The position numbers and the translations under genes were made by a program. Shown piece after piece: positions 30,502 through 64,000 of a stretch of DNA of 64,000 nt (its first letter is position 1; every line of letters begins with the position of its first letter). The notes under the pieces were generated by a model, which made no database searches, was not told the origin of the DNA, and saw nothing but the letters and a program-made list of their open reading frames with translations. The DNA comes from Marsupella aquatica (taxonomy: Eukaryota > Plantae > Marchantiophyta). Location of the stretch: positions 8,296,184 through 8,360,183 of the forward strand of contig OZ316895.1 in assembly GCA_973895155.1 (NCBI GenBank), written 5' to 3'.

Positions 30502-30845
30502 TGTTAGATATTGCTCTAGTCTTGTGACTCTTGTGCTAACCACAGTTAGGCTAACTCGGGTTAGGACCTAGCTAAGGTTAGCGGTTGTGTTGTTGTGCAT
30601 ATAGCCAGGGCTGATGCCAGACCCTGGTGGAACTTAGGCTCATTGTTACGAAGCTAGTTGAGAGATAGGGAGAGCTTGTGCTGTGGATGCTTGGTATGGC
30701 CGGTCGGCCTAGAGTGCAGTAAAGCTCTTGTGTGTTCCCGTGGACGTAGCCTCATGTGGAGGTGAACCACGTATCTCTCTGTGTTGACTATTGTGCGTTG
30801 GATGGTTCATAGGCTTGCCATTGCAAATGTCGTCTATGCTCAACA
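30502..30845 (+). repeat. 5' LTR of Copia copy B
   Basis: 344 bp, homologous to the copy A LTRs. Confidence 0.95.
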
Positions 30846-35500: not shown

Positions 35501-36122
35501 TTGAAGCAGTCTCCCAGACAGTGGAACAAGCGGTTTGATGATTTCATGCTTGCTCAAGGTTTTACAAGGATGGTGTATGATCCTTGTGTGTATACGAAAT
35601 CAGTCAAGAATGATGTATTTGGTTTCATCATTCTGGTGATCTATGTGGATGACATGCTAATTGTGGCTAAAGATCAATCTAAGGTTGACAGTCTCAAGGC
35701 GAAATTGAGAGCTGAATTCAGGATGAAGGATCTTGGTAAGGCCAAGAGGATCTTAGGGATGGAGATTTTTAGGAACTCTGAGACTGGACAGTTGTGCTTG
35801 AGTCAAGGCCAGTATGCGAGGAAAGTACTTGCACGATTCAACATGGAGAACTGTAAGCCAGTGAGTATTCCTTTAGCTTCACATTTCAAGTTATCATCGG
35901 CTTTCTCTCCTACGGATGTTGTGGAGAAAGGTCTGATGGCTAAGATTCCTTATGAGAAGGCAGTAGGCAGTCTGATGTATTTGATGACTTGTACTAGGCC
36001 TGACTTGGCACTAGCGATGGGCAAGGTTAGCAGATTCATGTCAAATCCAGGGAAGGTACATTGGGAAGCTGTGAAATGGATTCTCAGGTATGTGAAGGGA
36101 ACACAGGACTATGGATTACTAT
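32540..36122 (+). pseudogene. Disrupted gag-pol of Copia copy B
   Basis: gag, CCHC, protease DSAC, integrase, and RT motifs YKARLVAKGF, QMDVVTAF, SLYGLKQSPRQW, YVDDML. Contains stops and frameshifts; no RNase H. Confidence 0.93.
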
Positions 36123-36129
36123 GCGATGG

Positions 36130-36382
36130 TTGTGCATATAGCCAGGGCTGATGCCAGACCCTGGTGGAACTTAGGCTCATTGTTACGGAGCTAGTTGAAA
36201 GATAGGGAGAGCTTGTGCTGTGGATGCTTGGTATGGCCGGTCGGCCTAGAGTGCAGTAAAGCTCTTGTGTGTTCCCGTGGACGTAGCCTCATGTGGAGGT
36301 GAACCACGTATCTCTCTGTGTTGACTATTGTGCGTTGGATGGTTCATGGGCTTGCCGTTGCGAATGTCGTCTATGCTCAACA
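36130..36382 (+). repeat. 5'-truncated 3' LTR of Copia copy B
   Basis: ttgtgcatatagccagggc...atgctcaaca; lacks the first ~90 bp of the LTR. Confidence 0.92.
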
Positions 36383-38195: not shown

Positions 38196-39020
38196 ATGGA
38201 GGCAATTCAAGCTGGAGCCAGGGTTGCCGCGATCGGGTCGACCGTAGCTGTGGTCGACTCCGGCGCCACGTCTTCGTCCTCACGGGCGACTTGCGCTCGA
38301 GCTTTTCTCTCCAGGAAGCCGCTCTGTTGCCCAGGTTTGTCAGCTTCATCTTCTGGAGCCGGAGCTGTCGGTTCGTTTTTCTATAATGCTCTTGCAGCGA
38401 AGGTGCCTGAGGTTGAGAATGGGAGGAGAGGACATCGGGGTGTCGTCACTATGAGGTCGGACACCGCAGCTGGAGGCTACGCCACTGCTCTGGCAGAGCT
38501 TGCTCAGTCGACTGATCAATTGGAGGCGATCTACAAAGATATTGAGAGCTTTGGCGATATTTTGAAGAACCCCGAGATTCACGAGTTTCTAGTTAGCCCG
38601 GTGGTTGTGGACGAGAAGAAGAAGAGCATCCTCAAGACTTTGGCCGACGACGCCAAATTCAACCCTTTCACACTCAACTTCTTCTATGTTCTGATTGATA
38701 AGAAAAGGTTTGGCCTCATCAACGACGTTGTCAAGGAGTTCTCTACAATCTACTTCGAGTTAACCGACACGCAGCTTGCCACAGTGGCCTCGGCTGTAAA
38801 AATAGAGAAGGCGCAGTTGGCTCTCATTGCCAAGAAGATTCAGACCTTGAGCGGTGCGAAGAACGTTCGGATAAAAAACGTCATCGATCCGTCGTTGATT
38901 GCGGGCTTTATTGTGAAGTATGGCAAGGATGGTTCCTGCTTCGTGGACATGAGCGTCAAAGGGCAGTTGGATCGCTTGGCTCAGCAGTTCGAATACGCCG
39001 AGAAAGTCGGAGCATTTTAG
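38196..39020 (+). CDS. ATPD: Chloroplast ATP synthase CF1 delta subunit precursor (intronless CDS)
   Basis: Ser/Ala-rich transit peptide, then AAGGYATALAELA...GAKNVRIKNVIDPSLIAGFIVKYGKDGS..DMSVKGQL; 274 aa. Confidence 0.95.
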   Translation: MEAIQAGARVAAIGSTVAVVDSGATSSSSRATCARAFLSRKPLCCPGLSASSSGAGAVGSFFYNALAAKVPEVENGRRGHRGVVTMRSDTAAGGYATALAELAQSTDQLEAIYKDIESFGDILKNPEIHEFLVSPVVVDEKKKSILKTLADDAKFNPFTLNFFYVLIDKKRFGLINDVVKEFSTIYFELTDTQLATVASAVKIEKAQLALIAKKIQTLSGAKNVRIKNVIDPSLIAGFIVKYGKDGSCFVDMSVKGQLDRLAQQFEYAEKVGAF

Positions 39021-41024: not shown

Positions 41025-44000
41025 TCAAATTATTCGATTCCTAATGTCTTCCAGTTTCTTCAGGATTTCACCGGGGGTTCGATCAAGTTCGTCTGCAATT
41101 TTGCGCTGCAAGTCTGCTGACAAAGTTGGGTATTGTTCGCAAAGATCACCATCAATAACATCCTGCATATAATGAAAAGACAGTAAAAAACCAAGGTGAG
41201 GGGATGCAGGAAAATAGAAGGAGTTCAGACAACAGATACGAGGAGATTCGTTCGTGTCTCATATGCAGTCACCGAACTTCGACGAAAGTGCGAAACGACA
41301 GAATGCTACATACCTTCACGGGGAAATATGCTGATCTGAATGCCATGTGCTCACGGCCAGCCAGAGGGGGATTCTCTTGCCGCAAATGCATTTCCAAATG
41401 CGAGAAGAAGTCAACGTCTTCTCTTGATGAGAAGGGCAGTAGAGCTCCCACGCTACCCATCACTGTACCATAAAGGACAATTTCACCACCGCCTGGAATG
41501 AGAGAAGCTTTTTGCAAGCTAGTTACAACTTCTCCCACATGGAATTGGACAATTTCTTCAACCTTGTTGGGGGCTCCATTAAGTCTACCCTGTTCCCATT
41601 TGATCTTCCCTCCTGTGGGGTCATCTTCAATCTCCTCTGACACATCCTGTGGAAGGCGCATGAAGTAAACATTCCCAAACTTATCTGCTCCTGCCATTGT
41701 GTCGAAGTCTATGTGCAGTGAAGCAGTTAACCACCTAGGGCAACTGTCATCTGCAAATGTATATAACTGATTCTCATCCCGACGGTACTTCACATAGTGA
41801 AATGACTGCATTTCGAGCAAAAAGCTACGTCAGACGAGAATTGAGATTATAAAACGACAAGGTCAGACAAAAGGTTAAGCCTGCTGCACTTCCTTCTCCA
41901 AGAACGGACCATTCAAAGCAACTACGAAATGCACAACACTGCCTTACAAAACAATTACGGTCCTGGAAGCGGGTAGATATGTACCTCCTGCAAATCCCCC
42001 ACGTAGATTCGGTCTCCATATGTATGGATGGCAATGATGGTATTCGGAAAATTCTTGTTCTCACACTTCCGAAGCAGCTTCCTTTTACCGAGGTCGTATA
42101 TTCTCAAGATTTGCCCAACACCAACCAGTAAACGTCCTTGAAACTGACACAACGCAGTTGGTACACCATCTACCGGTGTCTTGTGTACAAGCTCTAAAGT
42201 TTTACCGTCATTGACCAACCTGTAAATGTGAATAAAACCTCCTGCTGATTCTTTCCTAGGCCAAAATTTCAGATCCTTCGAAGTTCCTACGGCTATGACA
42301 GTTCCCAGTTCTTTATCATGGAAAGTCACGGTACATAAACTTAACGCAGCCTCATTTTCCTGCAACTCCAACAAACAGGTGGTTTCTCCTGACTTGGGAT
42401 CCAGAACTCGCAAGCACGAGACCCACTTGCTTGAGACAGCCTTCGGATAACCATACTGTTCATCAGGAAGAGGATCTTCCTTCTCTTCTCCATCTCCATT
42501 CTCATGATCATCTGTATCCATCTTCCCATTCTCCCGCCCACCTGCAGCCTCGATTGCTTCCTTCTTATTCGTATCTCTCTCTTCCGTTGTGAACGCACCC
42601 ATGTCACTTTCCAGGATGATGAGAGACTTGTTCTTCGGATGAAGTATAAACTTTCTTGGAGTGTATCTAAGCGGCATGACTGTCTGGTTGAACGTTTCTC
42701 CTAACCTTTCAATGGTAAAAACCCGAAGAGCATCACCAGCAACAGCCACCACTCCTTCAGCGCACTGATCTGAGGAAAACGATGCAGCATATTCGAGGGT
42801 TTCATAGGAAAGAGGAGTGAGAAGAAAATGGCCTTGATGAATGTAACCCAACCACGGCCTGCTGGAAAGGCACAGCATGGCACGACGACCCCTAACTAGA
42901 GCAGAGAACAGCTTCGGTGCCCTCAACCCTAAAAAGCGTGTTCGTGTATCCGAAAGCTGTCCAGTGACCATGTCCACTTCGGTCCTCAGAAGCACACCAT
43001 TTTGAAGACCTGCACTAAGAAACACACTGGCAGGATGGTCTGCACCATCTTCACCACCTGTGGACGCTTGCACCTCAAGAAGGAGAAGGGATTCTGGCGG
43101 GGAAGAAACTGCTTGCACACTCAATATTTGCATACAATCATCTGGGTCCAGAGAAAGTATGCGAATGGTGCTATCATATGAACCCACGGCCAAAAACCTA
43201 GATCGTTGTCTACCTTCAGGCACCGGTGCAATGTCCAGGCATGCCACATCGCCCGACATTTCCCGCTTCTCGATTTCCATTAGCTGGCCAGTCAAGTCCA
43301 TCTCAAAATATATGAGCTCACCGCCACTGAGAGCAATCACAACTTGCATCCTGTTGCAACCCACTTTGACTATGGTTTTCTTCCCCGGAGTTTTCCATTC
43401 ATTGATACGACCATCTGCCCTTATGTGCCTTATCCCATTGGGGTGGACCTGCATCAAGGAGTCTTCACCTAGGAGGGAGACCGCAAGGGAAGGTGTGGTA
43501 TCCAAAAACCCACTGTCGCTGACTTCCTCTACAGTTTCACCAATAGACAACACCAGAGTGGCATTGACAAAAGACACGACAATATAGGCATCAAACTCAT
43601 CGTTGACGCTTCTTTTCACTGTCCAGACGGCACTCGGAACTCCAGGAAGCTGCGAAACGGCCATCTCAGTGACGGCAAGGCCGGGTCTCAAAATTCGTAA
43701 GGATGACTGAGGTCCTCTTCCACACAGAGCAAAAATCTGAGGGGTTTCTTCTTCAAATAGATTGGCAACTTTCATGTCCATGATTGGCATCAAGCTCTCG
43801 ATTTCGTCAATCTGAACTAAATTCTTCAGCTTCCGGGGCTGGAAGAAAACAGGCTGAAACCCATCTTCCGTCTCCATTAGTGTTGCAGAGGAAGACTCCA
43901 CATCCGCTTCATCACCTATCCCTTGAAATTGATACAGGGCATGGTTCCCGAATTCCGAACCAGCAAAAAGAAAACCAGACTTGAGAACACACATGGCAGA

Positions 44001-44999
44001 AGTAACTGGAATAGTATCGAAATACCTTATCTTCAGCTCAGTCACCAGATCGTTGGTGTCATAGTCCAGTGTCACTTTGAAAATGTCTCCATACTCGGTT
44101 TGCAGGAGGAAAAAGAACATATTCTTCTGCTTGTGAGTCGCGGCAGAAACAATCAGAACCCCCCTCTCGGCCGGTAAATCCGCCCTCCGAGGAATTACTG
44201 CGCGAACGTCAGGGCGGTTTTGGTTCTTGTAAATAACAAAATTCTCTGCACAGACGAGAACACCGCTCGGTCCGTCACCTCCACCTGGAACGGTCACGAG
44301 CATATTGGCACCGTTATCGATAGGCTCCGTCCACTTCCTGACCACATGGTTCAGCCCCAAATCGAGCTCGTAAAACGTGAGGTGCTTCTGCGCCTCCGCA
44401 GCAGCCTGGCCCGTAGAATCCTGATCAGCCTCCGAATAGTCGAGCTCTATAGCCGCGAAAATCGGATTATCGAAACCACAGTCCACCCCTGTGATCGAAT
44501 ACACTATTGTATGACTCTTGTGAGCCTCCAATGGGGAGGAAATAGTTAGTCTGGCGGCATTGTCCCGGTTCAAAACATACACCAGCTTCTGCTTCTCGCA
44601 AGCTCCGACCATCACAGCCCTGCCCTTGGGGTCCACGGCCAAGTATTGGCCCGGCACTATGCGGCGACATCCGGACTTGCCGAACGTTTCTTGATGAATC
44701 TTCTCGAACGTGTTCTTCTCCCGGTTGTACTCGAGAATCACAATCCTCCCGGAGTCAGAACCCACGACAATATAGTCCTTCTGCGACCCCGTCAGGCGAA
44801 ACTGTACCAGCGACCTAATGGCCCCGAACACCTCTACCGAGAGCAACGTCTGCAGCTTTCCATTGTCATCCGGCCGCAGTAAGTCCAGCACCTTGCCTCT
44901 GGCGACCACAATCTCCTGCGATTTGGCACCTATAAAATTTCCATATGTGGCGCATACAATCCCCGTCGCTCTCTGCAGCGACAGGCTGTACAAATACAT
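41025..44999 (-). CDS. SF3B3: Splicing factor 3B subunit 3 (SAP130/RSE1), 3 exons, 1214 aa
   Basis: MYLYSLSLQ...ETFGKSGCRRIVPGQYLAVDPKGRA...YFPVKDVIDGDLCEQY. Exons 44999-41985, 41805-41314 and 41162-41025 join in frame (3645 nt) through GT-AG introns. Confidence 0.97.
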
Positions 45000-46149
45000 C
45001 GCGCTCGCCGCTCCTTTCCCTCGCTAGCCCTAGTCCCGAACGAAGTGAGGGCTCCCCAAAACAAAACTGTTGTCCGTCCGTCCGCCGGGCCCTTATCCGA
45101 TGCGCGAAATCGCACAGGACAGGGGAAGAAACCGGGCGAGATTCTCAATTCTTTTCAGTTGCTTGTTACACCATGATAACCGGGACTCCCGATTGATGCA
45201 GACACGTTCAAGTGAACCGCAGGAGCCATCCCTGCAGGAATTTTAGTCCATTCAATTCAAACGATCACACAGTGTCCGAAAAGCCCGCGCACAAGACACA
45301 GTATGAGTAGCGATAAGCTTTCTTTAGGGGAGCTCGAGAAAAAGCTTCGACCAAGTTGCGAGCAACTTGAACGAGAGAGTGCTGATTAATAGAGCTAAGA
45401 ACACTGCTGCGCGGAGCTTCACCAAAATACTCCAGCCTACTACTGTCGATGGGAATGAAATGACGAATCAAACGAAGCTCCCAAAGACTGAGGGAGAGGA
45501 GGAGAGAGCATAACGAACGTTGAAGCAACGCCCGCGCACCAACAACAGAGATGTAGCGCTGCTAGGGCGTCTCAAAGCTTCGAACATGCCCTCAACACGA
45601 TGAGAGAGCCTCTCGACAGTCTTCTTACATAGGACTGTGTCCGTCGGGAAACCTAATAGCGGGCCCTCCTTATAATATTGGCACTCGAGATTTATCCCTG
45701 TGTTTGTTTCCCAACTTTATGGAAGAGAATGCCCATGTCCACATTTTGAGCTTTGTTCTCTACTTGTTAAACCACCACTACCCATGACAAAATCTTAGTT
45801 ATTCCAGATTTCACCATACATAATATCCTTTCCTGAATTTGTGGAGCAGTGTGGAATTGAGGAAAAGAATGAGAGTGATTTGTGGAGCTATGTGGAATGG
45901 GAGAGGGAAAGAATGAGAGTGAAAAAGGGAGAAGTCTTGGACACTACCCCTTTTATATGGCTAGTGGGGGTTTAAAGAAATTGAAATCTAAACTTGCTTG
46001 AAATTTGTCTTTGTCTTGAGTGTGAAGAAAGGAGAAAAAGAATCAAAGCAATAGTGAGAGTGAGAAATTTTTGGGGGTTAAAGTGTGTTAACTCCTTGTT
46101 AGGGCATTATGGCATCATGGGCAATAATAAGAGTCCGTCAAAACTTGGC

Positions 46150-46541
46150 TAAAGACATATTTATCTGGGACACTGTGCCCTGGAAATGCAAACATGTAGT
46201 TTACCATATAGCGTATGCCCAAAGACATCTCTATCTGGGACACTATAGTCCACAATGCCCTGGAAATGCAAACATGTAGTTTACCATATAGCGTATGCCC
46301 AAAGACATCTCTATCTGGGACACTATAGTCCACAATGCCCTGGAAATGCAAACATGTAGTTTACCATATAGCGTATGCCCAAAGACATCTCTATCTGGGA
46401 CACTATAGTCCACAATGCCCTGGAAATGCAAACATGTAGTTTACCATATAGCTTATGCCCAAAGACATCTCTATCTGGGACACTATAGCCCACAATACCC
46501 TGGAAAGGCAAACATGTAGTTTACCACGTAGCTTATGCCCA
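46150..46541. repeat. 80-bp tandem repeat array, about 5 units
   Basis: Unit aaagacatctctatctgggacactatagtccacaatgccctggaaatgcaaacatgtagtttaccatatagcgtatgccc. Central units are identical; terminal units are diverged. Confidence 0.95.
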
Positions 46542-48634
46542 TAATGATTTTTCTCTTTGTAATTTTTCTGTGCATTGCAAATGGCCACTCCAGTATGTAG
46601 TAGCTGAATAGGCTGTGGATGAACACCAGCTGGAGTTCTCATTTTTTCGCCTTTAATTATGGTGATTGATTACTAAAGCACTCAATCCAAAAGTATGCAC
46701 TATAGGTTAGGCTCACACTTAGGAAATATAGATCTGACTTTGTTAGAATAAAATGTTAATGCAAATACTTTGCCTCCCCAGTATGTACAGTAGTATGCAA
46801 CGCCTTGCTCCCCCATCCCCAAAATGCATAAGGATCTTGAAGGGTAGCCCCTTTCCTCTCAAAATTTGTTTTGCAACAATATCCTCAATTGAGCCTAGTT
46901 CTCCCCCTTCTCAATGATACATGGAAGTGAGGACCTAGTCCCCAAGCTTTTCTCTTCATTGTCTTCTTTAGATAGTAGATGCATGTTGCACTATAGAGGG
47001 CACATTCAATAATTTGTTGAGCCGAGGCTGTTTATTTTAGGGTCTAGACAAATTCCTCTTGTGACAATCCTATGCAAGTTACTCTAGAGTTTTACCAAGC
47101 TTTTCATTTTGCTGCCCAGTTGAGGTATTAGCTGGCTGTTCAATAAGGTTTTAGTTCCTTTGCCATTTTTAAGGACTCAGGCATATTTGGCTCTTTGGTA
47201 TTCTTGGGGGTTTCTCCCCTTTCTTGAGTCTCCTCCTTATGGGATAGGGCCTCCAGGCTAGACTCCTTTTGTATTTTGTCCAGATACACCCGCAGATACA
47301 TACTTGGGACCTCCACCTCTTCCATATTTAGTGTGTAGCTACCACCCTAAACTAGTCTAGAGTTACATTCATAACAGCTAGAAATGTTTTCTTGTTCCTT
47401 TATTAAGTATTGAGGTATTAGGCTACCTAGGGCTTTGCTCTAGACTTTGCTTGGAACTCTAGGTTTGCATTTCACTTTGTAGTATAGATAGAGATAGATT
47501 AATTCCTTGAATGTTTAAAAAATAGCAAACCAAGCAAATCTCACTTAAATTAAATCAAGAATATTGTAGCTAGGTTTTGTGAGGGGGTTATAGCACCTGC
47601 AGCCCTCTTTTTTTCCTTTTATAATTTATGGGAGGTCCCTAGCACAACCCCCAAGCCAGTGCCTAGCTAGGGGTTCCAAGTGTCATAATCCCAATCAGCT
47701 TTGCCCCATCTTAAAATATCAAAATGTTATGTGGAAAAAGAGTGTAGGGTTTACACTAGCTAACCCATGGCTTGTTCACAATGCACTGTAGATTACACCG
47801 GGATTGCCACCCTTGGGTAACTGCCAGTGACCCCTCCAGGCCATGGATTACACTACACTTCAATGAAAGTACATGGGAAGATTCATAAGTATAGTCTATT
47901 GGGGAGGCTAAGCTCTTAGAGGGGAGTATGACACCTTCAATAAAAATATATGAACGAAACACAAGGGTAGCTCTAGACTGTGTAGGCATCTTTTTGATGT
48001 TAGGGAGCTGAAGAGGTTGTATGCTTGTAGTGGCTGTATTTCTCTCTATGGGCAATATGATAGGACCCAAAGCTGTTGCACCACCAATATAATGCCACTG
48101 ACACTTGCCAGCATCCCTTGCTGTTGTGCCTCCAATGTGGGGTAAGGGGGTTGCCTGCACCATTGTTAGGATTTGTTACAGGATCAATAAAAGTGTGCTC
48201 ATAGGTGGCTGACTCTGACTCACTCCCAACCCAATGATTTTAGTGGGTGATCTTGGGGTTTGCTGGGGTGGCCTCAGTCGATGCCGCATTTTGGTAGTCG
48301 TGCGTTCTGGCCCCTGGTTTGTGTTCTTTTCGTTGCCTTTCTATTTAAAAAAACAAAGACAAAAACACACGGTTGCACTGTTACCTTTATATTTACCAAA
48401 AAAAAACAAAAACGAAAATACATGGGAAGGTGACGAGAACACCTTTAATAAAAATATATCAACAGAAACACACGGGAGGATTCACAAGGAAGGGTCTACA
48501 AGTCTACCGACGCGTTGCCAGTTTGCTATCATTTATAGCGGGCTCAGTATAGAGGGCGGGCGGCGGCAATTTCCACATCAACCTTAAGAGTTTTGCCGGG
48601 CACTGAACTCTTCACTATCAAATACGCCGGGGCT

Positions 48635-49260: not shown

Positions 49261-52200
49261 ATGGATCTGAATGTGGCGCCAACGAGTGACGAGGATGAGG
49301 AGGAGAGGGTGGAGTCGGCTGTGGACACGATGCGTAGGGAACGAGAGGAGCGGAAATTACGGATGAAAAGGCAAAGAGAAGAAGAGCGGCACGAGGCAAG
49401 GAGCAATGGACACAGTGTTGTACGTCAGGCTCCACAATTGAGAGAGAGCTCCAGGACGGCAGGGTTGAATTTGCCAGAAGGTAATTTTGAATCATAAGGC
49501 GGGGCATGATTTCGCGGACTCGCAGTTATTAGCATTGCGTTGTTCTCCCGAAATGCTTGCTTGTGACATGATAGGTTCCTTACCGGACGAAGAATAATTT
49601 CTGTGCAGGTTGGCTGGATTGCCCTAGCATGGGCGAGCCAGTTGCAGGCTTTCTCATTCCATCGAAAGTGCCTCTTGGGGAACGTTTTAACGAAGTCATC
49701 CCTCCTGGAAAACGTTTCTCTAAGCAACACGTTCTGCGAACACAACGCACCCGTCAACGAGAGGTTGACAACTCGTTTTCCTTCATTGTTATCATCGTGT
49801 TGTAAAGCTTCCTTCAATGGTCTTTATGCCATACTTCGACTCTCTTTTGCCCTTTTCTCGTTATCTTATATCTTTGTTAGGACGTCATTCCTATTCTGCT
49901 GTCATACGTTTGCTTCTGCGGTTCTTGCTACAGAAGCTGCTTCAATTGATTTACTATCTTCCTGTAATCACAATCGAGCATTACTCGTCTGGCAGGTTGC
50001 TTTGGTGATCGATCTCACCAACACTAATCGGTACTATTCACCTCAAGAGTGGTTAAGAGAAGGTGTCAAGCATGTGAAGGTGAGGCTGACAACGTTTTAG
50101 ATTATGAACCGTGCTATGTGTGTTGGTGTAGGTTAACAACGCATGTATGCTCTCTCTTAACGCTTTCCTCTCTGGAGCAGGTTCCGTGCAGAGGACGTGA
50201 CGAGGTCCCCGAGCCTGAAGCGGTCAATCAATTTGTTTATGAGGTGACAGTTTCCCGCCTGCAAAGCTTTCCATGTCAGGATAGTGCATTTCCACCAGTT
50301 TGGAGAACGTAAGACGTGGTGTGGAGGTAATTACTAAAATTGGCGGGCAATTTGATGGAACAGGTGATTAAGTTTCAGCATGGTACGGCAGCAAAAGCTC
50401 CGGGCAAGAGATATGTGGTGGTTCATTGCACACATGGACATAATCGTACAGGTTATATGATTGTACACTACATGATGCGAACTCAACATATCAGTGTTGA
50501 GAAGGTGCACACGAGTCCCATGCTTCTAAAAAACTAATTCATTTGCTAGACTGAAAAAATGAGACACTATCGGGACTATCCGCTCACTATACTTGATTGG
50601 TCTTTGTCAAGACAGCGTCTGATTGTGAAGCTCGGTTTATCTTTGCCGCCTAATTCTGCTATGGTTCATTTTTTGTTTCTTTGCAGTGTATAAAAGTATT
50701 TGCTGAAGCAAGGCCGCCTGGAATTTATAAGCCTGATTATATTGATAGCCTCTATAAATTTTACAATGAAAGGCGACCAGAACCATTGCATTGCCCGCGA
50801 ACTCCTGAATGGAAAAGACGAACCGAGGTTGATTTGAATGGTGAAGCAAAGGGCGACGAGGATGACGATGACGATGGGGGGATTTTGGCTGCGCTTCAGG
50901 TATCTGTAATTCTTAGCTCTTGCACCTGCGTGTGTCGACAAGTTCATCGCTGAATGCATATCTGGCCTGACACAGATAAAACTTCTTGGACTTATCTTCC
51001 TTGCATGGGTTTTCTGCTACAGTAGGTTCAAATGTTGGACTGCTTGGCGCCATTTGTGTTTTGTTAAATCTTCTATAACAAAGTTTGCATCCGGAGCCTT
51101 CAATGAGTGCATCGGACTAGTATCGAATATGTGTGTGACATTCCACATCCGTGTCGGCATTGTTCCACAGGAAGATGCAACCGCGGGACCACTTACGATG
51201 ACTAACGACGATGTGTTGGGAGATGCCATTCCTGATGAGCAGCAACTTGATATGCAGAAGTATATATGCATGGTTCTTGGAGTGGTAAGCTTCATTCATC
51301 CTCGTCTCCTCGTCGTGAGTCCTGTGACCTGTAAAAATCGAATTGAAGAGATCTAACTGATGGGAAATGGCTCCCAGCCGTGGTCGCCAACATGAGGAGC
51401 TCTGTCATCTTTGACCATCATGAGCTTGTAAAGTTTTACGACAATTTGCCATTTGTTTTCTTGGAAAGACTTGCTCAAGTCACATTGTTGGGGAAGATAA
51501 TTGAGATGGAGCCCAAGTCCTAATGCTACACAACATATAAATGACGTGAAACCTAAGATATCCTTCTTATATCTGTACTTGATATTTAACGACTAAAACC
51601 TGTCTTGCTTCTGTAGATGTTTGTGTAAAATAACAGCGAGACACTCTCCTTATTCATGGTCTTTTCTGCTCCTGTATTGTACTGGATGAATTTCTTTGGA
51701 AATGGGCAGGGCAGAGCAGGAGTCACCGTTCCTTATGATGGTGTGCTTGTTCGTCAATCCACCTTTGATGTTCATAGCACACCCATGACATAACTGTGCG
51801 CTGACCTCTACGTATGTGTGGCGTTCGTGACGGCTGGGGCAGCCTTCTGGAAAGCAGCCCAAATTTCCAGGGTCACAACCCGTCTCGTTGGATAGGTGAG
51901 TATTTAAATGCATTTTCCTGGTAGCTGATGAGGCTCTTGTATGTTTTAAGATATATACCCTTAGATCGCTGTCACAGGGAGATGTCTGTCGATCTAGAGA
52001 GACCTTCAATGGAGTGGAACTATCTCTTGCTCAAACAAAATCCTGATATCTGCAGGAAGAATCTTCAGCTTCTGCGGCAGCGGTATTACTATGCAACATG
52101 GAAAGCTGATGGGACGCGTTACATGATGTTCCTTACTCGATATGGCTGTTATTTGATTGATCGTAACTTTCGGTTCAGAAGGGTTCAACTAAGGTTTCCA

Positions 52201-54761
52201 ATAGTGAAGGTAATTAATTGTTCCTGAGTTTTCAGGCTGATAGAGGAGTCATAAAGAAGTATGGTTTGCGATCCGAGGTAGTGATGTTGAAGGTTAAGTT
52301 GTAAATGGTAGCACTGAGAGCAAAACGAAAGAGATCGAAAGTAGGCAAACATTTCTTGTGAATGCAGGCAGCCAACTCCATCTGAACTTGATGTGTGCCT
52401 AGCAGTCTTCTAAAGAGGCGCCTCCCGATATTCATCATCTCACGCTTTTGGATGGAGAGATGGTTATCGACACATTACCTGGCAGTACGCAACAGTCAAG
52501 AAGATACCTTGTTTACGACTTGATGATTTTAAACTCGCACCCTCTTCATGAGGTACCTTCAATTTGAATTTTCATGAAATGTGAACCGTTTGAATTGATG
52601 TAGCGGTTTGATAGGAATATACTGCCGGTGTTTCACGATGTCAGTCTCGTTAGCGGAGTCATTCCTGGAGTCTACTGGATGTTCTTATTCATTTGTTTAG
52701 GATTCTAATAGAGGGAATTTTCGTTTTCAACTCGGGTTTAGGGTATGTTGGTTTCTGATGCACACTGTGTGGCCCTCGATGCTGCTAGGGATTGTGGGAA
52801 TGTATCCGTAGCAAAAAATCAGCTTGGTGAAACTCTCCCTTGAGCTGTTGAACGCACCAGTACAGAAATGTCCTTTAGGACTCTAGCACAGCTAAATGGC
52901 AAGGGTTAGGAGGCAGGACTTAGAAACGACTCCCTCAATTCTTTTGTGGCTATTGTTGGATGTTATACTAGGTTTGTTGGTGTCATTTTCGTCCACTGCG
53001 TTGTAGCTAGTTGACAATGTGTCAAACGATTATTGTGATAATTTTATTCTTGTTGGTGTTTACAGCGTCCGTTCAGTGAAAGATGGAAACTCATAAAGGA
53101 CGAAGTGATTGATCCACGTAGAGAGGAGAAAGCCCGAGGTGTACGCTACCTCTACGATGCTGAGAAATTTTCGGTTAGTACAAATAATTATTGTTCGTAG
53201 TCGCAGAGCAAGATGGCCGTATGCGATCATTCTTGTGTATGGAGGTTTCTTGACAACGTGTTATTCTCATCACTTTGGAGCGATTAATTGCTTTACAAAG
53301 CAACTGTTACCCTTGTGTTCAGGTAAGGAGGAAAGACTTTTGGATGCTATCAACTACAGGAAAACTTCTCAATGATTTTATTCCGAATTTGCCCCATGAA
53401 GCAGACGGTCTTATCCTACAGGTCCGTTTCAAGTCTGACATGCCCTGGTATATATGTAGAGCTCTCCGCATGAATCATGTTATTGCTCAGAGCGGATGTT
53501 CTATATTCTCCATTTGATAGAAAAGCAAACACGAGTGCTGCTGATTATGTCGCGGTGCTCGCCAACACCTCACATTGGACTTTATTGGGACATCTTTCCA
53601 GGGTTGGGATGACTTGTATGTAACAAGGACTCATGAAGGGCTTCTCAAGTGGAAATATGCTCGGATGAATTCAGTTGATTTCCATTTACAGGTATATTTT
53701 GTGTACTAAACCGTCAACTATATTCCACCTTAACTTGAGAGTCGTGGAACTGTATTACTGTTGAGTTGTAATTGTTATTGTTGATGAAATCAGACACGTA
53801 AATCTGTATTGCCGCTGCTTAATGTGCTCTACATCGGACAGTCCTTTCTAAGCACGTCTGACAGATGTCTTTACTGGTTGGACCTATTTTCCGTCGAACG
53901 GTTTATTCTGCTAAGTACTGACATGAAACACTTGTGTAGCTTTCACCTTCGGGACAGTACCAATTATTCTTGATGGAAAGAGGAGGCAAATTGAGACAAC
54001 TGGATGGTGCACAATTAACTTTTCCTGGTATAGTCAAAGCCCTCGCATTTGTTTTTGGATGTGAAAGAGACCTCTGCATACCTGGACCAGTTCCTCTCAA
54101 ATGCATGGTATAGCCGCACCAGTAGTTCTCGCCGTCCTTGTCGAAATGCTGTGGAACTTTATGTTCGACTCCAATCTATTGTCTAAGCCCTATCATCTCG
54201 GTTTCTGGTACTGCAGAAGACCAAGATCCGTCCACTATGGTAGGCAAAATAATTGAATGTTCATGGAATCCGGAAGAAAGTCACTGGGAGTTCATGCGCA
54301 TCCGTAAGGACAAAGAGACTCCAAATGCCTGGCACGTTTATGAAAAGGTAAATAGATTTGGGGATGAGCAGCCGTCCAGGAACAATCTTAGGTTTCCTTG
54401 TCTGCAAGTGAGTAGTTCTGGATAATTATAGTGGGTTCCATATTTATTGACCGAGAGGGTGCCTAAATGCCTAAATGGTTGGTTTTTGGTCACTCAGTGT
54501 GCCTCTTAAATTCATCTTTCGCATAAATCTAGTCAGATAATGGTTAATGTCAGGGCTCTGATGACTAGGACGCAGATAAAAGTTCTTTACGACGTGTGGG
54601 AGCTGATGTATTGATTCAATTGCTTACAGGTTATGGGCAGTCTGCATGACAAGATCACAGAGGACGTATTGTTAGAAGAAATCCAAGAGATTTGTCACCT
54701 ACCAATGTATGCAGAGAGCATAGCCCGAGAACACCAGCAAAGAGCCACCCGAGGCAGATGA
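49261..54761 (+). CDS. Bifunctional mRNA capping enzyme (RNA triphosphatase + guanylyltransferase), about 16 exons
   Basis: MDLN start, GWLDCP, IPSKVPL, VIDLTNTNRYY, VHCTHGHNRTG, FAEARPPGIYK, FPGSQPVSL, ATWKADGTRY, LLDGEMVID, HEADGLILQ, LLKWK. Stop TGA at 54759-54761. Confidence 0.95.
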
Positions 54762-55651: not shown

Positions 55652-55906
55652 CTTTGGTTCCCTTCCCTTGATTGGTTCTCTGGCCTATGAGGTCAGGTTT
55701 CCTGGTTGGGCTATATATCACATAAACGTGTCTTTACTAGGGATCTCAAAGCCCAGTTTGACGGACCTTGGTTCCCTTCCCTTGATTGGTTCTCTGGCCT
55801 ATGAGGTCAGGTTTCCTGGTTGGGCAGCTGTTGTTTTTGGGCAGCCTATATATCACATAAACATGTCTTTACTAGGGCATCTCAAAGCCCAGTTTGATGG
55901 ACCTTA
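55652..55906. repeat. Two-copy ~115-135-bp tandem duplication
   Basis: ttggttcccttcccttgattggttctctggcctatgaggtcaggtttcctggttggg...atctcaaagcccagtttga.ggacctt occurs twice; the second copy has an internal insertion. Confidence 0.9.
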
Positions 55907-57426: not shown

Positions 57427-57596
57427 GTTAGTTGCATCTCATACTATAATTACGAGTTGTTTCCTACACATTCGATAGGATTGGAGCTGGACTCTATGTG
57501 CATGTGATGGGTTAGTTGCATCTCATACTATAATTACGAGTTGTTTCCTACACATTCGATAGGATTGGAGCTGGACTCTATGTGCATGTGATGGGT
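57427..57596. repeat. Exact 84-bp tandem duplication immediately upstream of the LFS-like gene
   Basis: gttagttgcatctcatactataattacgag...atgtgcatgtgatgg at 57427 and 57511. Confidence 0.95.
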
Positions 57597-57674
57597 AAAT
57601 TGCTTGTGCTCATTAGCTCTGTGCGAAGACATTGCTGGGCTTGACACATGATGAAAATATATTCGGTTGCAGCA

Positions 57675-58145
57675 ATGGCGGAACAAAAGGAGAAGGGGAA
57701 ATGGGGATCAACCGTGACCAAGGTCATTCCGGCCACAATAGACAAGGTATGGGCAGTTCTTGCAGACTTCGATGGGATTCGTAGGAACTTCCCAGAGTTT
57801 GTTGAATCATCTGAAACCGTCGAAGGAGAAAAGAACAAACCAGGGTCCCTGCGTGTTGTCACAGCTTCAACTCCTGAGGGGGAAAGAGTCGAGGGTAGAG
57901 AAAGACTTCTTACCTTAGACGATGTGAATCACACGACCAGCTATGCTGTTGAATATATCAGCCTCGGCTGGACCGGCTATGAAGCCCACATCAGCTGTGA
58001 GAGTGTTGAAAATGGGCACACGCTTGTAAGGTGGACGTTTGAATTGAACCCAATGAGTACAATAACAGAGGAGGAGTATATCAAAAATCAATTGGGTTTC
58101 TATCTCCTATTATTGGAACTTACCAAAGGAATTGTGGCGAAATGA
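57675..58145 (+). CDS. START/SRPBCC polyketide-cyclase family protein (lachrymatory-factor-synthase-like)
   Basis: KWGSTVTKVIPATIDKVWAVLADF...VEGEKNKPGSLR...RERLLTLDDVNHTTSY...TLVRWTFELNP; intronless, 156 aa from the ATG at 57675. Confidence 0.85.
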   Translation: MAEQKEKGKWGSTVTKVIPATIDKVWAVLADFDGIRRNFPEFVESSETVEGEKNKPGSLRVVTASTPEGERVEGRERLLTLDDVNHTTSYAVEYISLGWTGYEAHISCESVENGHTLVRWTFELNPMSTITEEEYIKNQLGFYLLLLELTKGIVAK

Positions 58146-58750
58146 CGGAGCTGCGGTCCAGGATTTAAGGCCTGCGATAAGTGTATTGGAAGGGGCAGAC
58201 GAATTTGCAATGCTTCTTATGATCCTGTGTGAAGCAAATGGCTCCGAGATGTGGTGGCATTTAGTCTCACTGGAAGCTGCTTGATATAATCAGCTGTGCT
58301 ATGATGGATGACCACCTTGACCTCTTGACTCGACGTTCAAACTTTGAAACGGTGGGTAAGATCCTCTCCGATCTCGTCTTGGACGTTTGGAAGGTTGGTG
58401 GCCATGAAACTTGTGTTGCCCAGGGATTTCGGAATGCACAGCACGCCTTCAACTCCGTACCTTATTTTGACCACGCCTTTCTTTATCAGGCTTTTCAGTT
58501 TGCTGCTCAGTCATGCTTTTCCTTTTGAGCTTTTTGGCTCGCTGGTTTTTCCCTTGTTGTCTCCCCTTTGTTGGGTCTCCTGCCTTCGAGATCCTGTCTC
58601 AAGGTTTGGAGTTTTCCGTTCCTTGGTATATATCTTTAGTATGAACATGGTTTTGCAGACTTCTTGAAATCTTCAAGTTACGTCACCAGTATGGGTCATC
58701 TATAACGTGAAGACCCATACTGGCTTTAACCTTGCCAGACTGCTAGAATG

Positions 58751-59007
58751 TGTTGGTAACAACCAATATTCTATTGCTACGATAGAACAAGGCGCAGGGC
58801 GCCATATAAGTAGGGAACGATGGATCCCTGGAAGAGGAAGAGATCAATGGACATAACGTAGTGACCTAGAACTAACAGCCTAGATGGCTACCGCATATCA
58901 CGCATACTGGGCAACGTGATGTAAGGCAAGTAACGGTGATCAATAAAGATCACACTAGTGTCGTAGCCAGTCGCTTCTACACTACTTACGAGTAATAACT
59001 TCCAACA
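58751..59007 (-). repeat. 3' LTR of Copia C (257 bp)
   Basis: Terminal inverted TGTTGG/CCAACA, adjacent PPT; the first 8 bp recur at 63993-64000. Confidence 0.88.
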
Positions 59008-59066
59008 CCCCCTCTCGAGTAAGTGAGAGTGTATTAAGAGAATCGGACGTGAGAGGAGAACAAAAG

Positions 59067-59390
59067 ATGCTGTCAGCGGTACCGCGAGTTGTCCATCCAT
59101 CAATTTTGGTAGTGGAAACAATCGAGCCGCAAACAATGTCCCCCTCTGAGTAGGAGAAATGCCCCAAGGATTGTAGCGCAGTGGGGCAGAAGCAAGAGAG
59201 ACGGAGTGTATGCCGACGTCGTTATTATGCGGTCGCAGTAGGTCATAGGCCAGGAATCTATACTTCTTGGGTCAATGCAAACCGAGAAGTTTGTGGGTAT
59301 CCAAGAAACTGTCACCAGGCTTTTCGAACACTAGCAGAGGCGGAGTACTTTATGGCTTGGTCTAGTGCAGGAGTGAAGATATTTAGCTAG
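59067..59390 (+). CDS. Antisense ORF inside Copia C encoding an RNase H1 N-terminal hybrid-binding / caulimovirus viroplasmin (Cauli_VI-like) domain; one in-frame TAG upstream of the domain
   Basis: RRYYAVAVGHRPGIYTSWVNANREVCGYPRNCHQAFRTLAEAEYFM fits the family pattern YYAV--G--PGIY-SW------V-GY-------F-T--EA--F. In-frame ATGs at 59067 and 59136; TAG at 59151-59153. Confidence 0.8.
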
Positions 59391-62300
59391 GATGCAACGT
59401 GAGGTCAGATATGGAAAAAATGCCAATAAATCTCCTATGTTTTTCAAACTTAAGTCGGGACAGCGGCTTGGTAAGGATATCAGCCGGGTTTTCAATTGTA
59501 TTAATATATGACAATGAGATCTCCCCCTCTAGCACCCTTTCCCGAACGAAATGGTGCTTGCCTTCTATGTGTTTGGTACGAGCATGAAATACAGGATTTT
59601 TGGCAAGTTTGATGGTCCCTTGGTTGTCACAATGTAAATGAATGTCAAGGGAGGTAGGGATGGCAGCATGTGCAAGATCGGTGTGAATAGAAGGGTCAGA
59701 GATCGTAAGTGGTACCTTCAAGCTAGGATGGATGTTAAGTTCCATCAGTAGTCTGCGAATGTGTACAGCTTCTTTGGCCCCTTCAGATAATGCCTTATAC
59801 TCAGCTTCAGTGGTACTGTCGGAGACTGTCGATTGAAGCTTACTTGACCATGAAATAGGACCGGCTGCAAGTTGAAATAGGTAGGCGCCACGAGACCGAC
59901 GAGTGTCAGGGCAACCTAGGAAGTCAGCGTCAGTGAAGCCTTGAAGTGAGGCCGAGGACGAGCGCTGGAAGAAAATGCCATAATCGGTAGTACCCTGCAA
60001 ATACCGGAGGATATGCTTGACAGATTCCCAGTGCCGTTGCTGAGGGGAAGACATGTAACGGCTGACTATGCCGACAGCGTAAGCAATATCAGGCCTGGTG
60101 TGGGTGAGAAAAATAAGTTTTCCTACAGCATGGCAGTACTCAGTGACATCGAAAGAAGTAGTATCGGTGTTTGTAGTTAGAACATGGCCTTCAGGGAGAG
60201 GTATATGTTCGGGCTTGCAGTTATTCATGCCCAGTTCCTTCACCAGATCCTGACAGTAGGAAGTCTGATGGAGAAAAAGTCCGGTAGAAGTGCGAAGGAA
60301 TTCAATACCGAGGTATTTTTGGACGAACCCCAGGTCCTTCATCTGATAGCGCTGCTGAAGGTGAGCCTTGGTGGATGCAATTTTTGTGGGATTGCTCCCG
60401 GTGATGAGTAAATCATCTACATAGAGCATTAAAATAACGATGGCACCATCAGAATGACAGAAATAAAGATTGGGGTCAGCAGCACTACGGGTCCAGCCAG
60501 TGTCCCGAAGATGGGTGTCAATTTCACTATACCATGCTCTTGGGGATTGTTTGAGACCATAGAGGGAGCGTCGTAAGCGGCACACCATAGATTCCTTCCC
60601 AGGAATCTCAAATCCTTGCGGTTGGTGCATATATATTTCTTCGGTGAGAGTGCCATTGAGGAATGCTGTAATGACATCCATGTGATGCAATTCCCAGCCA
60701 TTGGCAACGGCAAGTGCAATGATAGTCCGGAGGGTTGACCACTTGACTACAGGAGCAAAGGTCTCATTATAGTCAATCCCAAATTTTTGTTCAAAGCCCC
60801 GGGCGACCAAGCGTGCTTTGAGGCGAAACCGAGTAGAATATGGTTTAGCCCGAAATACCCATTTAGCGGTCAGTGCACGTCGTCCTGCAGGCAAATAAAC
60901 AAGTTCCCAGGTACCCATTTGTAAAAGGGACTCAATTTCTTCCTCCATAGCCTCCTTCCAGCCTGGGTGATTGAGAGCAGCTTCCGTGGAAAGATTTTCA
61001 CATTCAGGTCCTGCAGACTCGACTAAGAAGGTGCTCATGTCATAGTCATTGTGCCAAGGAGGTGGTCGATGAGTCCGCAACGAGTGGCGGAGTGCAGGTG
61101 GTCGTTCTTGTGGTGCAGCCACAGGCAGAGGTTGAATGTCCTCATTGGGGGGCAGTTCTGGCACAGGTTCGACCCCAACATCAGCTTGCTCACAATTAAT
61201 CTCTCCGTGGATGTCATCATGGACAGGTTCCCCCTCTGGAACTAGAAGTTCTGGAATGTGAGGAATAGGCAAAGCATCCCCAAGGGCAACGAGCACGGGT
61301 TGAAAGAGGGCGTGGATAGCAGCATGATCCGATGCCTGAGCTCCCATGGTATTTTCGTCAAATGTAACATCCTTGGAGATGATAATTCATCGGCGAGCAG
61401 CATCATAACAACGGTAAGCTTTAGATTCGTCATCATAGCCAAGAAGCATGGTGCGCAGAGATTTAGTGCTAAGCTTGGACTGAAGAGAGTCTGGAAGAAG
61501 AACATACGCTGTGCAGCCAAGTACGCGGAGGTGGCCAAGATCGGGTTTGGTACCAAAAATGGCCTCAAACGGAGTGCATTTATACAGGGCCCGGGTACCA
61601 GACCGATTTTGAACATAGTTAGCAGCACGAACTGCCTCGTGCCAAAGAGACACAGAGGTGCCGGAGCTAAGTAGAATAGCCCGAGCAGCTTCAATTAATG
61701 TACGGTTCTTACGCTCAGCTACTCCATTTTGATGAGGGGAGTCAGCAACAGTAAGCTGGCGCCTAATCCCATGGGTCCTGCAAAATTGGAGAAATTCTGT
61801 GGACATGTACTCCCCGCCACGATCAGATCGAAGACACGCAATTTTTTGATCAAATTGATTCTCGACCAGCAGCTTGAATGCTTTGAACTGGTCAAAGGTG
61901 TCGCTCTTGCGGGGCAGAAAATAGACCCAAGTGAATCGAGTAAAGTCATCAATAAAAGTGAGGATATACTTAACACGAGAAGGTCCTTGAATAGGACCAC
62001 ATAGATCAAAGTGAAGAAGCTCCAGTGGTCGGGAGGCCCGTGAAATAGATTGCTTAGGAATCTTTTCTCGATGATGCTTGGCTTGGACACAAGTGCCACA
62101 AACTCGCTTGACTCGTGGGAGCATAGGAAGACCAGTTACCAAGGAGCCCTGGGACATATGGTGAACCATTTGATAATTTATGTGGCTGAGCCGTCGGTGC
62201 CAGAGCTCAATCGCATCTTGATGCAAAACTTCAGCAGGGGCCTCAGTAAGGAGGACTGGGGCGGACTCCAATAGCTTTGCGTGGCGGTGAAAACGTGAGT

Positions 62301-63714
62301 GGGGCGCCTGAGTAAGGGCCAAATGTGGAAGAGGGTGACGCAGCTTGTAAAGTCGATTTCTTGGATCACGAGCAGCAGTGAGGAAGACCTGCTGAGGATT
62401 ATCTTTGTCAAAGACATGGCACGATTTAGAACTGAACAAAATAGGATGACCAGCATCAGTGAGAGTACCAATAGAGAGAAGATTTCGTGTCAGACCAGGA
62501 ACATACAAAACTTTGCGAATCTCTTTATTCTGATCAATGGAAACTGTGCCGTGGCCAGCCACTGGGAGCTGGATGCCATTAGCAGTAGTCACAGAAGTTG
62601 AGGAAGTTCCAGCAGTAAGATCACGAAAAACAGCAGGATCACCCGTGACATGGGTGCTAGCGCCAGAGTCGAGAATCCATTCTCGAGAGTTGTGCCTAGT
62701 GTCAAGCTCAGTAAAATTTGCCTCCATGATTTCACTATCATCGTAAGTATCTTCCTCATCACCTTCGTAATAGTTATCAGAGATCTCAGCAGCATTGGCC
62801 TGTGGCTTAAACCGGCGGATGCCAGCAGCTTTCAACTGCATTTCTGCAATTTCTTCATCGAGCTTCTTGAGGTCACATTGTGGCTCCCAATGGCCAGTCT
62901 TCCCGCAATAGTTGCAACTGCCAATGCTGCGTCCTCGGCCGACAGACATTGATCGTGAGTTCCGGAGGTTGCTGAAGTGGCGTGGTGGGAAGCTGTGGCG
63001 TGGTGGGAAGTTCCCCTCAGTACGAGGTTGGAAGCGCCCTCGTCCGCGTCCATAGGAAAAGGAGCGAGTGACTGCCATAGCTTCCTCCGTAGTGTCCGTC
63101 TGCTTTCCTTTCCGCCAATACTCATCAGACTGGAGTCGTTCAAGCAGATTTGTGAATGTCGGCTTGGGGGACCGTGAGAGGTCAGCGCTGAACATAGAGA
63201 CAAATGTGCCCCAACTCAGAGGAAGACCTTGTAAGACTATGTGGATGAGACGGTGCTCGACAACTTCAGCATTCATGCTGGCCAGTTGTCCAGCAAGTGA
63301 GTTGATTTTGTTGATGTAGGATTCGACCGATCCTCCTTCATTCATACGGGTGTTCTGGAGCTTCTTCTCCAGTAGTAGCTGTCGTTGGACTGTATCACCT
63401 CCAAAACGCTGCTGAAAGTGTTCCCAGCACTTGGCTGGATCATCGGAAAACTTATCCACAGTAGATAAGAATTGAGGCTTCACGATGGAGGCCAAGATAG
63501 ATACGGCCCGAACTTTCTTCTTCTCGATCTCACGAGCAGTCAAGTGGGCCCCTCCATCGACAAGGTTGCCATTGGCATCTGGCTTTACACCAAAGTTCAG
63601 CTCAGCAAACAGCTCGTCACGTTTCAGCAGGTTCTTGACCACGATGGTCCACGTCATGTGATTCGTAGTGCCGGCAAGCTTATCGCTCTCAGAGAACAAT
63701 TTAAGAAGATCCAT
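59383..63714 (-). pseudogene. gag-pol polyprotein of Copia C, one reading frame with a single nonsense codon
   Basis: The 775-aa and 654-aa ORFs are in frame across TGA at 61387-61389. Motifs: CNYCGKTGHWEPQC, WILDSGASTH, FIDDFTR, RSDRGGEY, LKARLVARGF, YVDDLL, GFTDADF, FHARTKHI. Confidence 0.94.
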
Positions 63715-64000
63715 AGCTAACAGATATGATTATACGGTGCTACAGTGCTCTAGTCAATGTTGAGGAACTTTCACTCAACCGAAGCTATTACGTAAGGAAT
63801 TCTAGTCCTATGCTAGATTATGATCACATCAGGGATCCTTTCTACCTGAGTGTATACTGTAGGAGTCGAGCTTAAGAAAGCTATTGCTATGTGATTACGT
63901 CAGGGAATCTCTCAACCTGAGTATACACTAAGTCTAGTTTCAAACGTAGAAAATTCTAGCGTGGATCGAGTAGAGCCTTAGCTATGATACCATGTTGGTA

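What the first reader, a model, noticed from the sequence alone, without database searches (positions are those of the whole stretch)
59067..59390. Copia retrotransposon carrying an antisense RNase H1 hybrid-binding (viroplasmin-like) mini-gene
Seen in sequence: the 375 bp between the pol stop and the PPT of Copia C is almost filled by an opposite-strand frame whose stop overlaps the pol stop by 8 bp. Its C-terminal ~50 aa (YYAVAVGHRPGIYTSW...VCGYPRNCHQAFRTLAEAEYF) match the RNase H1 N-terminal domain. Established: that domain binds RNA:DNA hybrids and dsRNA in eukaryotic RNase H1 and occurs in caulimovirus P6/TAV, a silencing suppressor; canonical Copia elements lack it. Inference: a stand-alone hybrid/dsRNA-binding accessory protein, possibly transcribed from the 3' LTR in reverse, that could aid reverse transcription or counter silencing. 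In this copy a TAG at 59151 separates the ATGs from the domain, which may be a post-insertion mutation.
Basis: partly seen in the sequence, partly recalled or inferred. Interest (0 to 1): 0.8.

Follow-up and report, generated by a model that had tools for sequence, protein, structure and literature searches.

The report
Broken antisense hybrid-binding gene in Copia
A dead plant Copia jumping gene carries, read backwards between its polymerase gene and its end repeat, the remains of a small extra gene for the domain that RNase H1 uses to grip RNA:DNA hybrids; this copy is broken, but intact-looking relatives suggest the element family likely uses such a helper protein.

Summary
The domain is real: the + frame at 59220-59351 matches Pfam PF01693 (E=3.6e-15) and models onto the human RNase H1 hybrid-binding domain. 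It lies antisense in the 375 bp between pol and the 3' LTR of a Copia element. The proposed 107-aa mini-gene is not supported. The TAG at 59151 is kept by the closest contigs in all four public runs, so it is likely inherited, not private to this copy. Many of those contigs have another stop at codon 3, and differences in the spacer look neutral (4 of 18 synonymous; 23 of 26 in pol). Intact 137-163-aa relatives exist. The nearest (75% identical over the domain) aligns without gaps across the TAG, but the N-terminal helix it shares with a second relative is absent here. A Copia about 80% identical in RNase H also has the domain next to pol. So this is a 5'-truncated relic of a lineage-wide antisense accessory gene; expression and function are untested. 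I found no report in print. This scan noted it before on another, intact element of the same genome (unchecked).

The parts
58746..58750 (.). 5-bp flank GAATG, likely target-site duplication
   Evidence: Sequence; the same five letters follow the other LTR end in a contig of run X2 (table 5c)
58751..59007 (-). 3' LTR, 257 bp, TGTTGG...CCAACA ends
   Evidence: its end matches the 8 nt of 5' LTR at the window edge
59008..59016 (-). Polypurine tract
59034..59150 (+). Remnant of the linker-coding part of the antisense gene, upstream of the TAG; contains ATGs at 59067 and 59136
   Evidence: Ungapped homology to P0015: 15 of 60 identities over the 60 codons before the domain's basic patch, 1 of 20000 shuffles; further stops in sister contigs
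59151..59153 (+). In-frame TAG that separates all in-frame ATGs from the domain
   Evidence: kept by the four spanning contigs of 97% identity in runs X1-X4
59220..59351 (+). RNase H1 N-terminal (hybrid-binding, Cauli_VI) domain, preceded by a basic RRR patch at 59214-59222
   Evidence: PF01693 E=3.6e-15; fold match 3bsu
59352..59390 (+). Tail and stop of the antisense frame in this copy; overlaps the pol stop by 8 bp
   Evidence: other copies stop at 59376-59378
59383..61386 (-). pol, RT and RNase H part
   Evidence: RVT_2 E=2.8e-73; RNase H assigned from position and motifs, no Pfam row
61387..61389 (-). Single in-frame stop inside gag-pol; this copy cannot make RT from the polyprotein
61390..63714 (-). 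gag, zinc knuckle, protease-region barrel, integrase
   Evidence: Retrotran_gag_2, Pol_BBD, gag_pre-integrs, rve, SH3_retrovirus
63981..63992 (-). Primer binding site, tRNA-Met type
   Evidence: Sequence; tRNA identity recalled, not tested
63993..64000 (-). Last 8 nt of the 5' LTR at the window edge

Best explanation
The spacer is likely the decaying remnant of an antisense accessory gene of about 160 codons carried by this Copia lineage, which in intact relatives is predicted to make a nuclease-free RNA:DNA hybrid-binding protein, while this copy has no usable start for the domain. Shown: the domain and its position; the internal stop; loss of the N-terminal helix; the same arrangement in a diverged Copia. 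Inferred: in this subfamily the gene lost its first ~45 codons and gained a stop, and elements went on being copied afterwards, so the gene is not needed in cis. Inferred for the intact gene: it would be transcribed from a reverse promoter in or near the 3' LTR. Its protein (predicted long N-terminal helix, disordered linker, C-terminal binding domain) would sit on RNA:DNA hybrids of the element (reverse-transcription intermediates or R-loops) and keep host RNase H1 off them. Given an intact expressed gene I put hybrid binding at about 50%, dsRNA or silencing at 20%, a protein-binding role at 20%.
For: Domain. The eight best-scoring of 179 fetched proteins against the domain are small (91-163 aa) single-domain proteins; five of them scanned show PF01693 only; the window domain groups with P0015 (96/82). 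Ancestral continuity through the TAG. N-terminal 45 aa conserved between P0015 and P0001 (score 81, 0 of 3000 shuffles) but at chance level in all six frames of 58701-59100. TAG inherited: every difference of the four spanning contigs is accounted for at other sites; X2 holds both junctions of this same insertion yet its internal contig differs at 12 of 1007 sites, so it reflects other copies. Neutral pattern: 4 of 18 spacer differences synonymous (23% expected at random) against 23 of 26 in pol, p=1.7e-5. Diverged Copia with the domain beside pol: joint 59347>59420 in X1 and X3 on a contig with 42 differences in 215 nt of RNase H; contigs near 90% identity span domain end and pol. HBD residues matching human Y29 and W43 are kept in 9 of 9 close sequences; W43A abolishes hybrid binding (PMC7261153, passage). 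P0015 model: helix 2-60, low-confidence 61-107, HBD fold.
Against: The genomic context of P0015, P0001, P0077 and P0132 could not be seen, so their link to Copia is inferred. The linker homology is significant only when anchored on the domain and only for P0015 (weakly P0098); the unanchored test was not (1170 of 5000). The synonymous-site contrast is not like for like: the pol rows include more diverged elements and 252 rows were hidden; only two listed differences fall inside the domain, so decay of the domain itself is untested. For contigs under about 95% identity the state of the TAG is not shown. Contig depth is about 1 to 2.3 times the flank in X2-X4, so few insertions may be involved. 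Positions matching human K59 and K60 are Q and A or G in all 9 close sequences (K or R at the first in 198 of 235 others); K59A and K60A cut hybrid affinity about tenfold. No expression data.
Confidence: 0.62

Rival explanations
1. The TAG-bearing subfamily still makes a short domain protein, by splicing an upstream LTR exon onto an acceptor at the TAG, by stop read-through from the ATG at 59136, or from a non-AUG start.
For: The domain is undamaged here (36 of 48 identical to P0015; pLDDT 94-97 over the domain). A pyrimidine run precedes the TAG and the ATG at 59136 has an A-rich context (sequence). Contigs 85-89% identical still align around 59092-59176.
Against: No in-frame ATG between TAG and domain; five of six listed differences between TAG and domain change the residue; no TATAWA match inside the LTR; high domain identity is expected from earlier selection in a young relic.
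Confidence: 0.12
2. The segment is a passively captured piece of a host gene (a stand-alone HBD gene or RNase H1 exon) that has hitch-hiked in the 3' region and never served the element.
For: Neutral pattern in the spacer; the domain is widespread, 1368 representative hits; a Helitron-captured PF01693 gene is published (PMC4289320, passages); context of the intact relatives unknown.
Against: It sits at the same place and orientation in Copia contigs about 10% and 20% diverged in RNase H. Loose ends of a diverged relative in three runs each read in frame without a stop for ten codons on either side of the domain's first part (table 7, read by eye). Captured genes are usually in sense (PMC7264820).
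Confidence: 0.16
3. One reading: an intact ~107-aa mini-gene is the family norm, this copy alone was hit after insertion, and the protein counters silencing.
For: One X1 contig is identical to the window over 59034-59104, so some copies keep the first ATG open; the frame was continuous ancestrally; the P6 domain binds dsRNA in vitro (PMC5902531).
Against: TAG shared in four runs, further stops at codons 3 and 14 and a 1-bp deletion in sister contigs; relatives are longer and start with a conserved helix; the domain is dispensable for RNAi suppression by P6.
Confidence: 0.06
4. The intact gene is a real accessory gene but binds proteins, not nucleic acid, as the same domain of CaMV P6 binds TOR and ribosomal proteins eL18 and eL13; this changes the function, not the relic status of this copy.
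For: PMC5902531 passages; loss of the K59-equivalent lysine in 9 of 9 close sequences.
Against: W43 and Y29 equivalents kept; net charge +3 to +6 in 8 of 9 close domains (median +3 in others), with a basic patch before the domain.
Confidence: 0.15

Closest known systems
Antisense additional ORFs between pol and 3' LTR of plant LTR retrotransposons (aORF-3R / eORF-3'R: maize Grande gene23, rice RIRE2, Retand TRP28, PvRetro13)
   Same: Same position and orientation; small non-polyprotein gene; function unknown (PMC7264820, parts 1-2 of 3 of the text; PMC11963269, passages)
   Different: The examples I saw described with domains are Gypsy (Retand, Ogre, Athila) with long 3' regions and Transposase_28, plant mobile or SMC-like domains; the REXdb table of eORF domains lists no Cauli_VI and no Copia row, but covers only ORFs of 250 codons or more (PMC6317226, passages and additional file 4). 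Here: Copia, a 375-bp spacer, an RNase H1 HBD.
N-terminal hybrid-binding domain of RNase H1 (PF01693; human 3bsu, yeast 1qhk)
   Same: Full profile match, same predicted fold, Y29 and W43 equivalents kept
   Different: No nuclease domain in the frame or in the five relatives scanned; domain is C-terminal; F58-K59-K60 equivalents read H-Q-A or H-Q-G
dsR domain of caulimovirus P6/TAV
   Same: Same Pfam family in an accessory protein of a reverse-transcribing element, free of an RNase H catalytic domain (PMC5902531, passages)
   Different: P6 is a large multi-domain sense-strand protein (size recalled); no P6 appears among the named hits, and no direct comparison with P6 was run
Helitron-captured capE gene of Pleurotus ostreatus
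   Same: A transposon carrying PF01693 (PMC4289320, passages)
   Different: Fungal DNA transposon, one long copy; not an antisense gene of an LTR element

Membership tests
Ty1/Copia LTR retrotransposon | Order gag-PR-INT-RT-RH, Copia-type RT | tested here: met
   Retrotran_gag_2, Pol_BBD, rve, then RVT_2
Ty1/Copia LTR retrotransposon | TG...CA LTRs, PBS, PPT, target-site duplication | tested here: met
   only 8 nt of the 5' LTR are in the window; TSD inferred table 5c
Ty1/Copia LTR retrotransposon | REXdb lineage by RT tree | not testable with these tools
   No reference RT set available; no related loci found in viral contigs
RNase H1 N-terminal domain (PF01693) | Profile score above gathering cut-off, full length | tested here: met
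   56.3 bits vs 21, positions 1-44 of 44
RNase H1 N-terminal domain (PF01693) | Three strands and two helices superposing on solved HBD | tested here: met
   (predicted model; rmsd 0.5 A to 3bsu, E=1.1e-3)
RNase H1 N-terminal domain (PF01693) | W43, K59, K60 binding surface | tested here: inconclusive
   W kept; K59 is Q and K60 is A, but K60 varies widely among other members
RNase H1 N-terminal domain (PF01693) | Binds RNA:DNA hybrids or dsRNA | not testable with these tools
   Needs a binding assay
RNase H1 enzyme | Catalytic RNase H domain in the same chain | tested here: not met
   Only PF01693 in the frame and in nine small relatives scanned
Functional antisense aORF-3R | Antisense, between pol and 3' LTR | tested here: met
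Functional antisense aORF-3R | Present in most copies of the family | tested here: inconclusive
   Present in contigs at about 99, 90 and 80% RNase H identity; other joints skip the spacer with unknown content; no assembly held
Functional antisense aORF-3R | Open frame conserved like pol | tested here: not met
   For this subfamily: shared TAG, further stops, 4 of 18 synonymous. Not tested at DNA level for the intact relatives
Functional antisense aORF-3R | Antisense transcript | not testable with these tools
   No RNA run listed; this is no evidence either way

The most novel reading that the evidence does not exclude
A lineage of plant Copia elements has domesticated the hybrid-binding module of RNase H1 as a stand-alone antisense gene whose protein acts in trans as a dominant-negative decoy: it coats the element's RNA:DNA intermediates and blocks host RNase H1, and subfamilies like this one lost the gene and ride on the protein of intact relatives. 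With the scan's unchecked notes on an algal Copia and fungal DNA transposons, this would be a repeated, unrecognised transposon counter-defence against R-loop surveillance.
Probability: 0.25. Interest if true: 0.75.

Novelty: new variant of a known kind. Interest (0 to 1): 0.45.

Why it matters
Antisense extra ORFs of plant LTR retrotransposons have been an open question because their proteins resemble nothing with a known activity. Here the extra gene carries a small domain with solved structures, known ligands and known loss-of-binding mutants, so its role can be tested directly. It would also extend such genes to Copia at a size (about 160 codons) below the 250-codon floor of the main survey. 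This particular copy matters less: it is a broken relic, useful mainly as evidence that the gene can be lost while the element still spreads.

Tried and rejected
No genome is held, so copies could not be collected. No RNA holder listed; not evidence on expression. Related-locus scans gave nothing in a Copia context: 1 viral and 40 metagenome loci for the domain, none of the 41 matching gag-pol or the element DNA; P0015 and RT-RH scans of viral contigs were empty. A search among longer proteins returned 26 hits, mostly RNase H1 or PIF1-type fusions and none with a retroelement Pfam domain; only part of the candidates were scored, so this is weak. ESM Atlas for P0015 gave fungal Cauli_VI clusters (0.92), a lead only. 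Unanchored linker comparisons were not significant for any of five relatives. The - strand 127-codon frame over the spacer and the 64-codon frame before the TAG have no Pfam hit. The two other Copia elements in the window have no second copy of the domain. The bacterial promoter scan is not suited to this DNA. The domain tree has only 53 columns and did not converge; it places the nearest kin but cannot name a donor. An exact look-up of three window host proteins found nothing, so the host group stays open. Sequence look-ups in earlier findings were empty. No complex prediction was run.

Full report
Anatomy. A Copia element lies on the - strand from the window edge to 58751. In order: 8 nt of 5' LTR (63993-64000), a tRNA-Met-type PBS (63981-63992; tRNA identity recalled), one gag-pol frame from 63714 to 59383 with a single internal stop at 61387-61389, a spacer, a PPT (59008-59016) and a 257-bp 3' LTR. 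Pfam gives gag, integrase and Copia RT domains in Copia order. The five letters left of the LTR recur after the other LTR end in a contig of run X2, a likely target-site duplication (table 5c). The host looks like a plant; the group was not established.

The domain. Residues at 59220-59351 match PF01693 over the whole profile, E=3.6e-15. The best solved relatives by sequence are yeast 1qhk (E=0.00096) and human 3bsu (E=0.042). The AlphaFold model (mean pLDDT 83) superposes on 3bsu at 0.5 A, E=1.1e-3, with no row at E<=0.001. The open length is not itself unusual (1972 of 5000 shuffles). The domain hit carries the observation.

Relatives. A full HMMER scan gave 1368 hits at E<=0.001, of which 150 were listed. 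Scored against the domain, the top eight of the 179 proteins then held are small proteins with one C-terminal domain: P0015 and two cluster mates (163 aa), P0001 and one mate (156 aa), P0077, P0132 and P0098. They come from unnamed short contigs, whose context I could not read. P0015 is 36 of 48 identical over the domain and groups with the window in a short, unconverged tree. Anchored on the domain and without gaps, the 60 codons upstream share 15 identities with P0015 (1 of 20000 shuffles), straight across the TAG; P0001, P0077 and P0132 show no such signal and P0098 a weak one. The unanchored test for P0015 was not significant (1170 of 5000). P0015 and P0001 share a conserved N-terminal 45 residues (0 of 3000 shuffles), predicted as a long helix; it is not found in any frame of 58701-59100. 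So the ancestral gene was probably about 160 codons, and this element keeps only its last three quarters.

Other copies. Four public runs (two studies, two organism codes, contigs only) hold about 60% of the words of the region. Laid on 59030-59230, the table of differences has 12 rows, no note of hidden rows, and none at 59151-59153. One contig per run spans the TAG at about 97% identity; their 5, 6, 6 and 7 differences are all accounted for by rows at other sites, so all four keep the TAG. X2 holds both junctions of this insertion with an identical flank (0 differences in 179 nt), while its internal contig differs at 12 of 1007 sites, so that contig reflects other copies. X1 shows at least four distinct haplotypes at 59034-59132. 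The tool does not list every difference of contigs under about 95% identity, so their state at the TAG is unknown, and depth is not a copy number. Sister contigs add a stop at codon 3 of the proposed ORF (all four runs), a stop at codon 14 (two runs) and 1-bp deletions at 59102 and 59183. All cover at 59376 in X1-X3 ends the frame there, which only shortens the tail and removes the overlap with pol. Of all 18 listed spacer differences 4 are synonymous, 11 change a residue and 3 make stops, against 23% synonymous expected at random; of all 26 listed pol differences 23 are synonymous (p=1.7e-5). Three rows in flank and LTR were left out, 252 rows were hidden, and the pol rows include more distant elements, so the contrast is indicative. 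Only two rows fall inside the domain.

Is it a lineage feature? A contig in X1 and X3 joins the second half of the domain to a pol end with 42 differences in 215 nt; others near 90% identity span domain end and pol (tables 5 and 8). Loose ends at 59215 and 59260, each in three runs, read by eye as stop-free, domain-like continuations of a more distant relative. Other joints go from the PPT region to pol with unknown sequence between. So the domain sits beside pol in at least three subfamilies.

Mechanism. For this copy: likely no protein, since no in-frame ATG lies between TAG and domain, and pol is broken too. For the intact gene, by inference: a nuclease-free HBD on a flexible linker behind a helix would occupy RNA:DNA hybrids and compete with host RNase H1. 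W43 and Y29 equivalents are kept in 9 of 9 close sequences, but the K59 equivalent is Q in all of them (K or R in 198 of 235 others; the close set was picked by similarity to the window). W43A abolishes and K59A/K60A weaken hybrid binding (PMC7261153, one passage), so affinity may be lower or ligand preference altered. The silencing reading is weaker: the P6 domain binds hybrids and dsRNA in vitro but proved dispensable for RNAi suppression, and it also binds TOR, eL18 and eL13 (PMC5902531, passages).

Comparison and novelty. [quoted passage not shown] The REXdb survey counted only ORFs of 250 codons or more, and its domain table has no Cauli_VI (PMC6317226, passages and additional file 4; additional files 1 and 3 were too large to read and could bear on this). 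PF01693 in a transposon is in print for one fungal Helitron (PMC4289320, passages). Seven searches listed no paper on an HBD gene in a Copia element; most hits were seen as listings only, and subscription journals are largely missing. Passages of 10.1101/572842 and PMC13547354 held nothing on it.

Verdict. Real domain, real lineage feature, broken in this subfamily. New variant of a known kind. Interest 0.45: the family-level gene is testable and seemingly undescribed, but this locus is its relic, and context of the intact relatives, expression and function remain unshown.

Noticed in passing
window 22819-36338: Two related Copia elements about 7.5 kb apart and about 95% alike, with four copies of an LTR-like 300-nt repeat; both have broken gag-pol frames and no copy of the hybrid-binding domain.
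   Followed up: partly
window 20828-22193 (+) and 29160-30029 (-): DDE_Tnp_4 transposase pieces and a Myb/SANT-like frame, the two usual parts of a PIF/Harbinger element (recalled), separated by the first Copia element.
   Followed up: no
window 38196-39020 (+): Uninterrupted 274-aa ORF of the ATP synthase delta/OSCP family with a long N-terminal extension, probably the plastid subunit.
   Followed up: partly
window 41269-44999 (-): Splicing factor SF3B3/RSE1-like gene whose first 1014 codons lie in one uninterrupted frame.
   Followed up: no
window 46091-46570: Tandem array with an 80-bp period, inner copies 98-99% alike.
   Followed up: no
window 57427-57594, 4452-4559, 55654-55825: Perfect duplications of 84, 54 and 58 bp; recent slippage or assembly artefact.
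   Followed up: no
window 57645-58145 (+): Intronless polyketide cyclase/START-like ORF (PF10604, E=2.3e-15) ending about 600 bp from the element's 3' LTR.
   Followed up: partly
window about 51900-54760 (+): Exon-like pieces that read like an mRNA capping enzyme (recognised by eye, not scanned).
   Followed up: no
proteins P0180, P0183, P0185: Further small unnamed proteins with a single C-terminal PF01693 domain, two with a hydrophobic N-terminal stretch; they do not group with the window's domain in the tree, so the architecture may have arisen more than once.
   Followed up: partly
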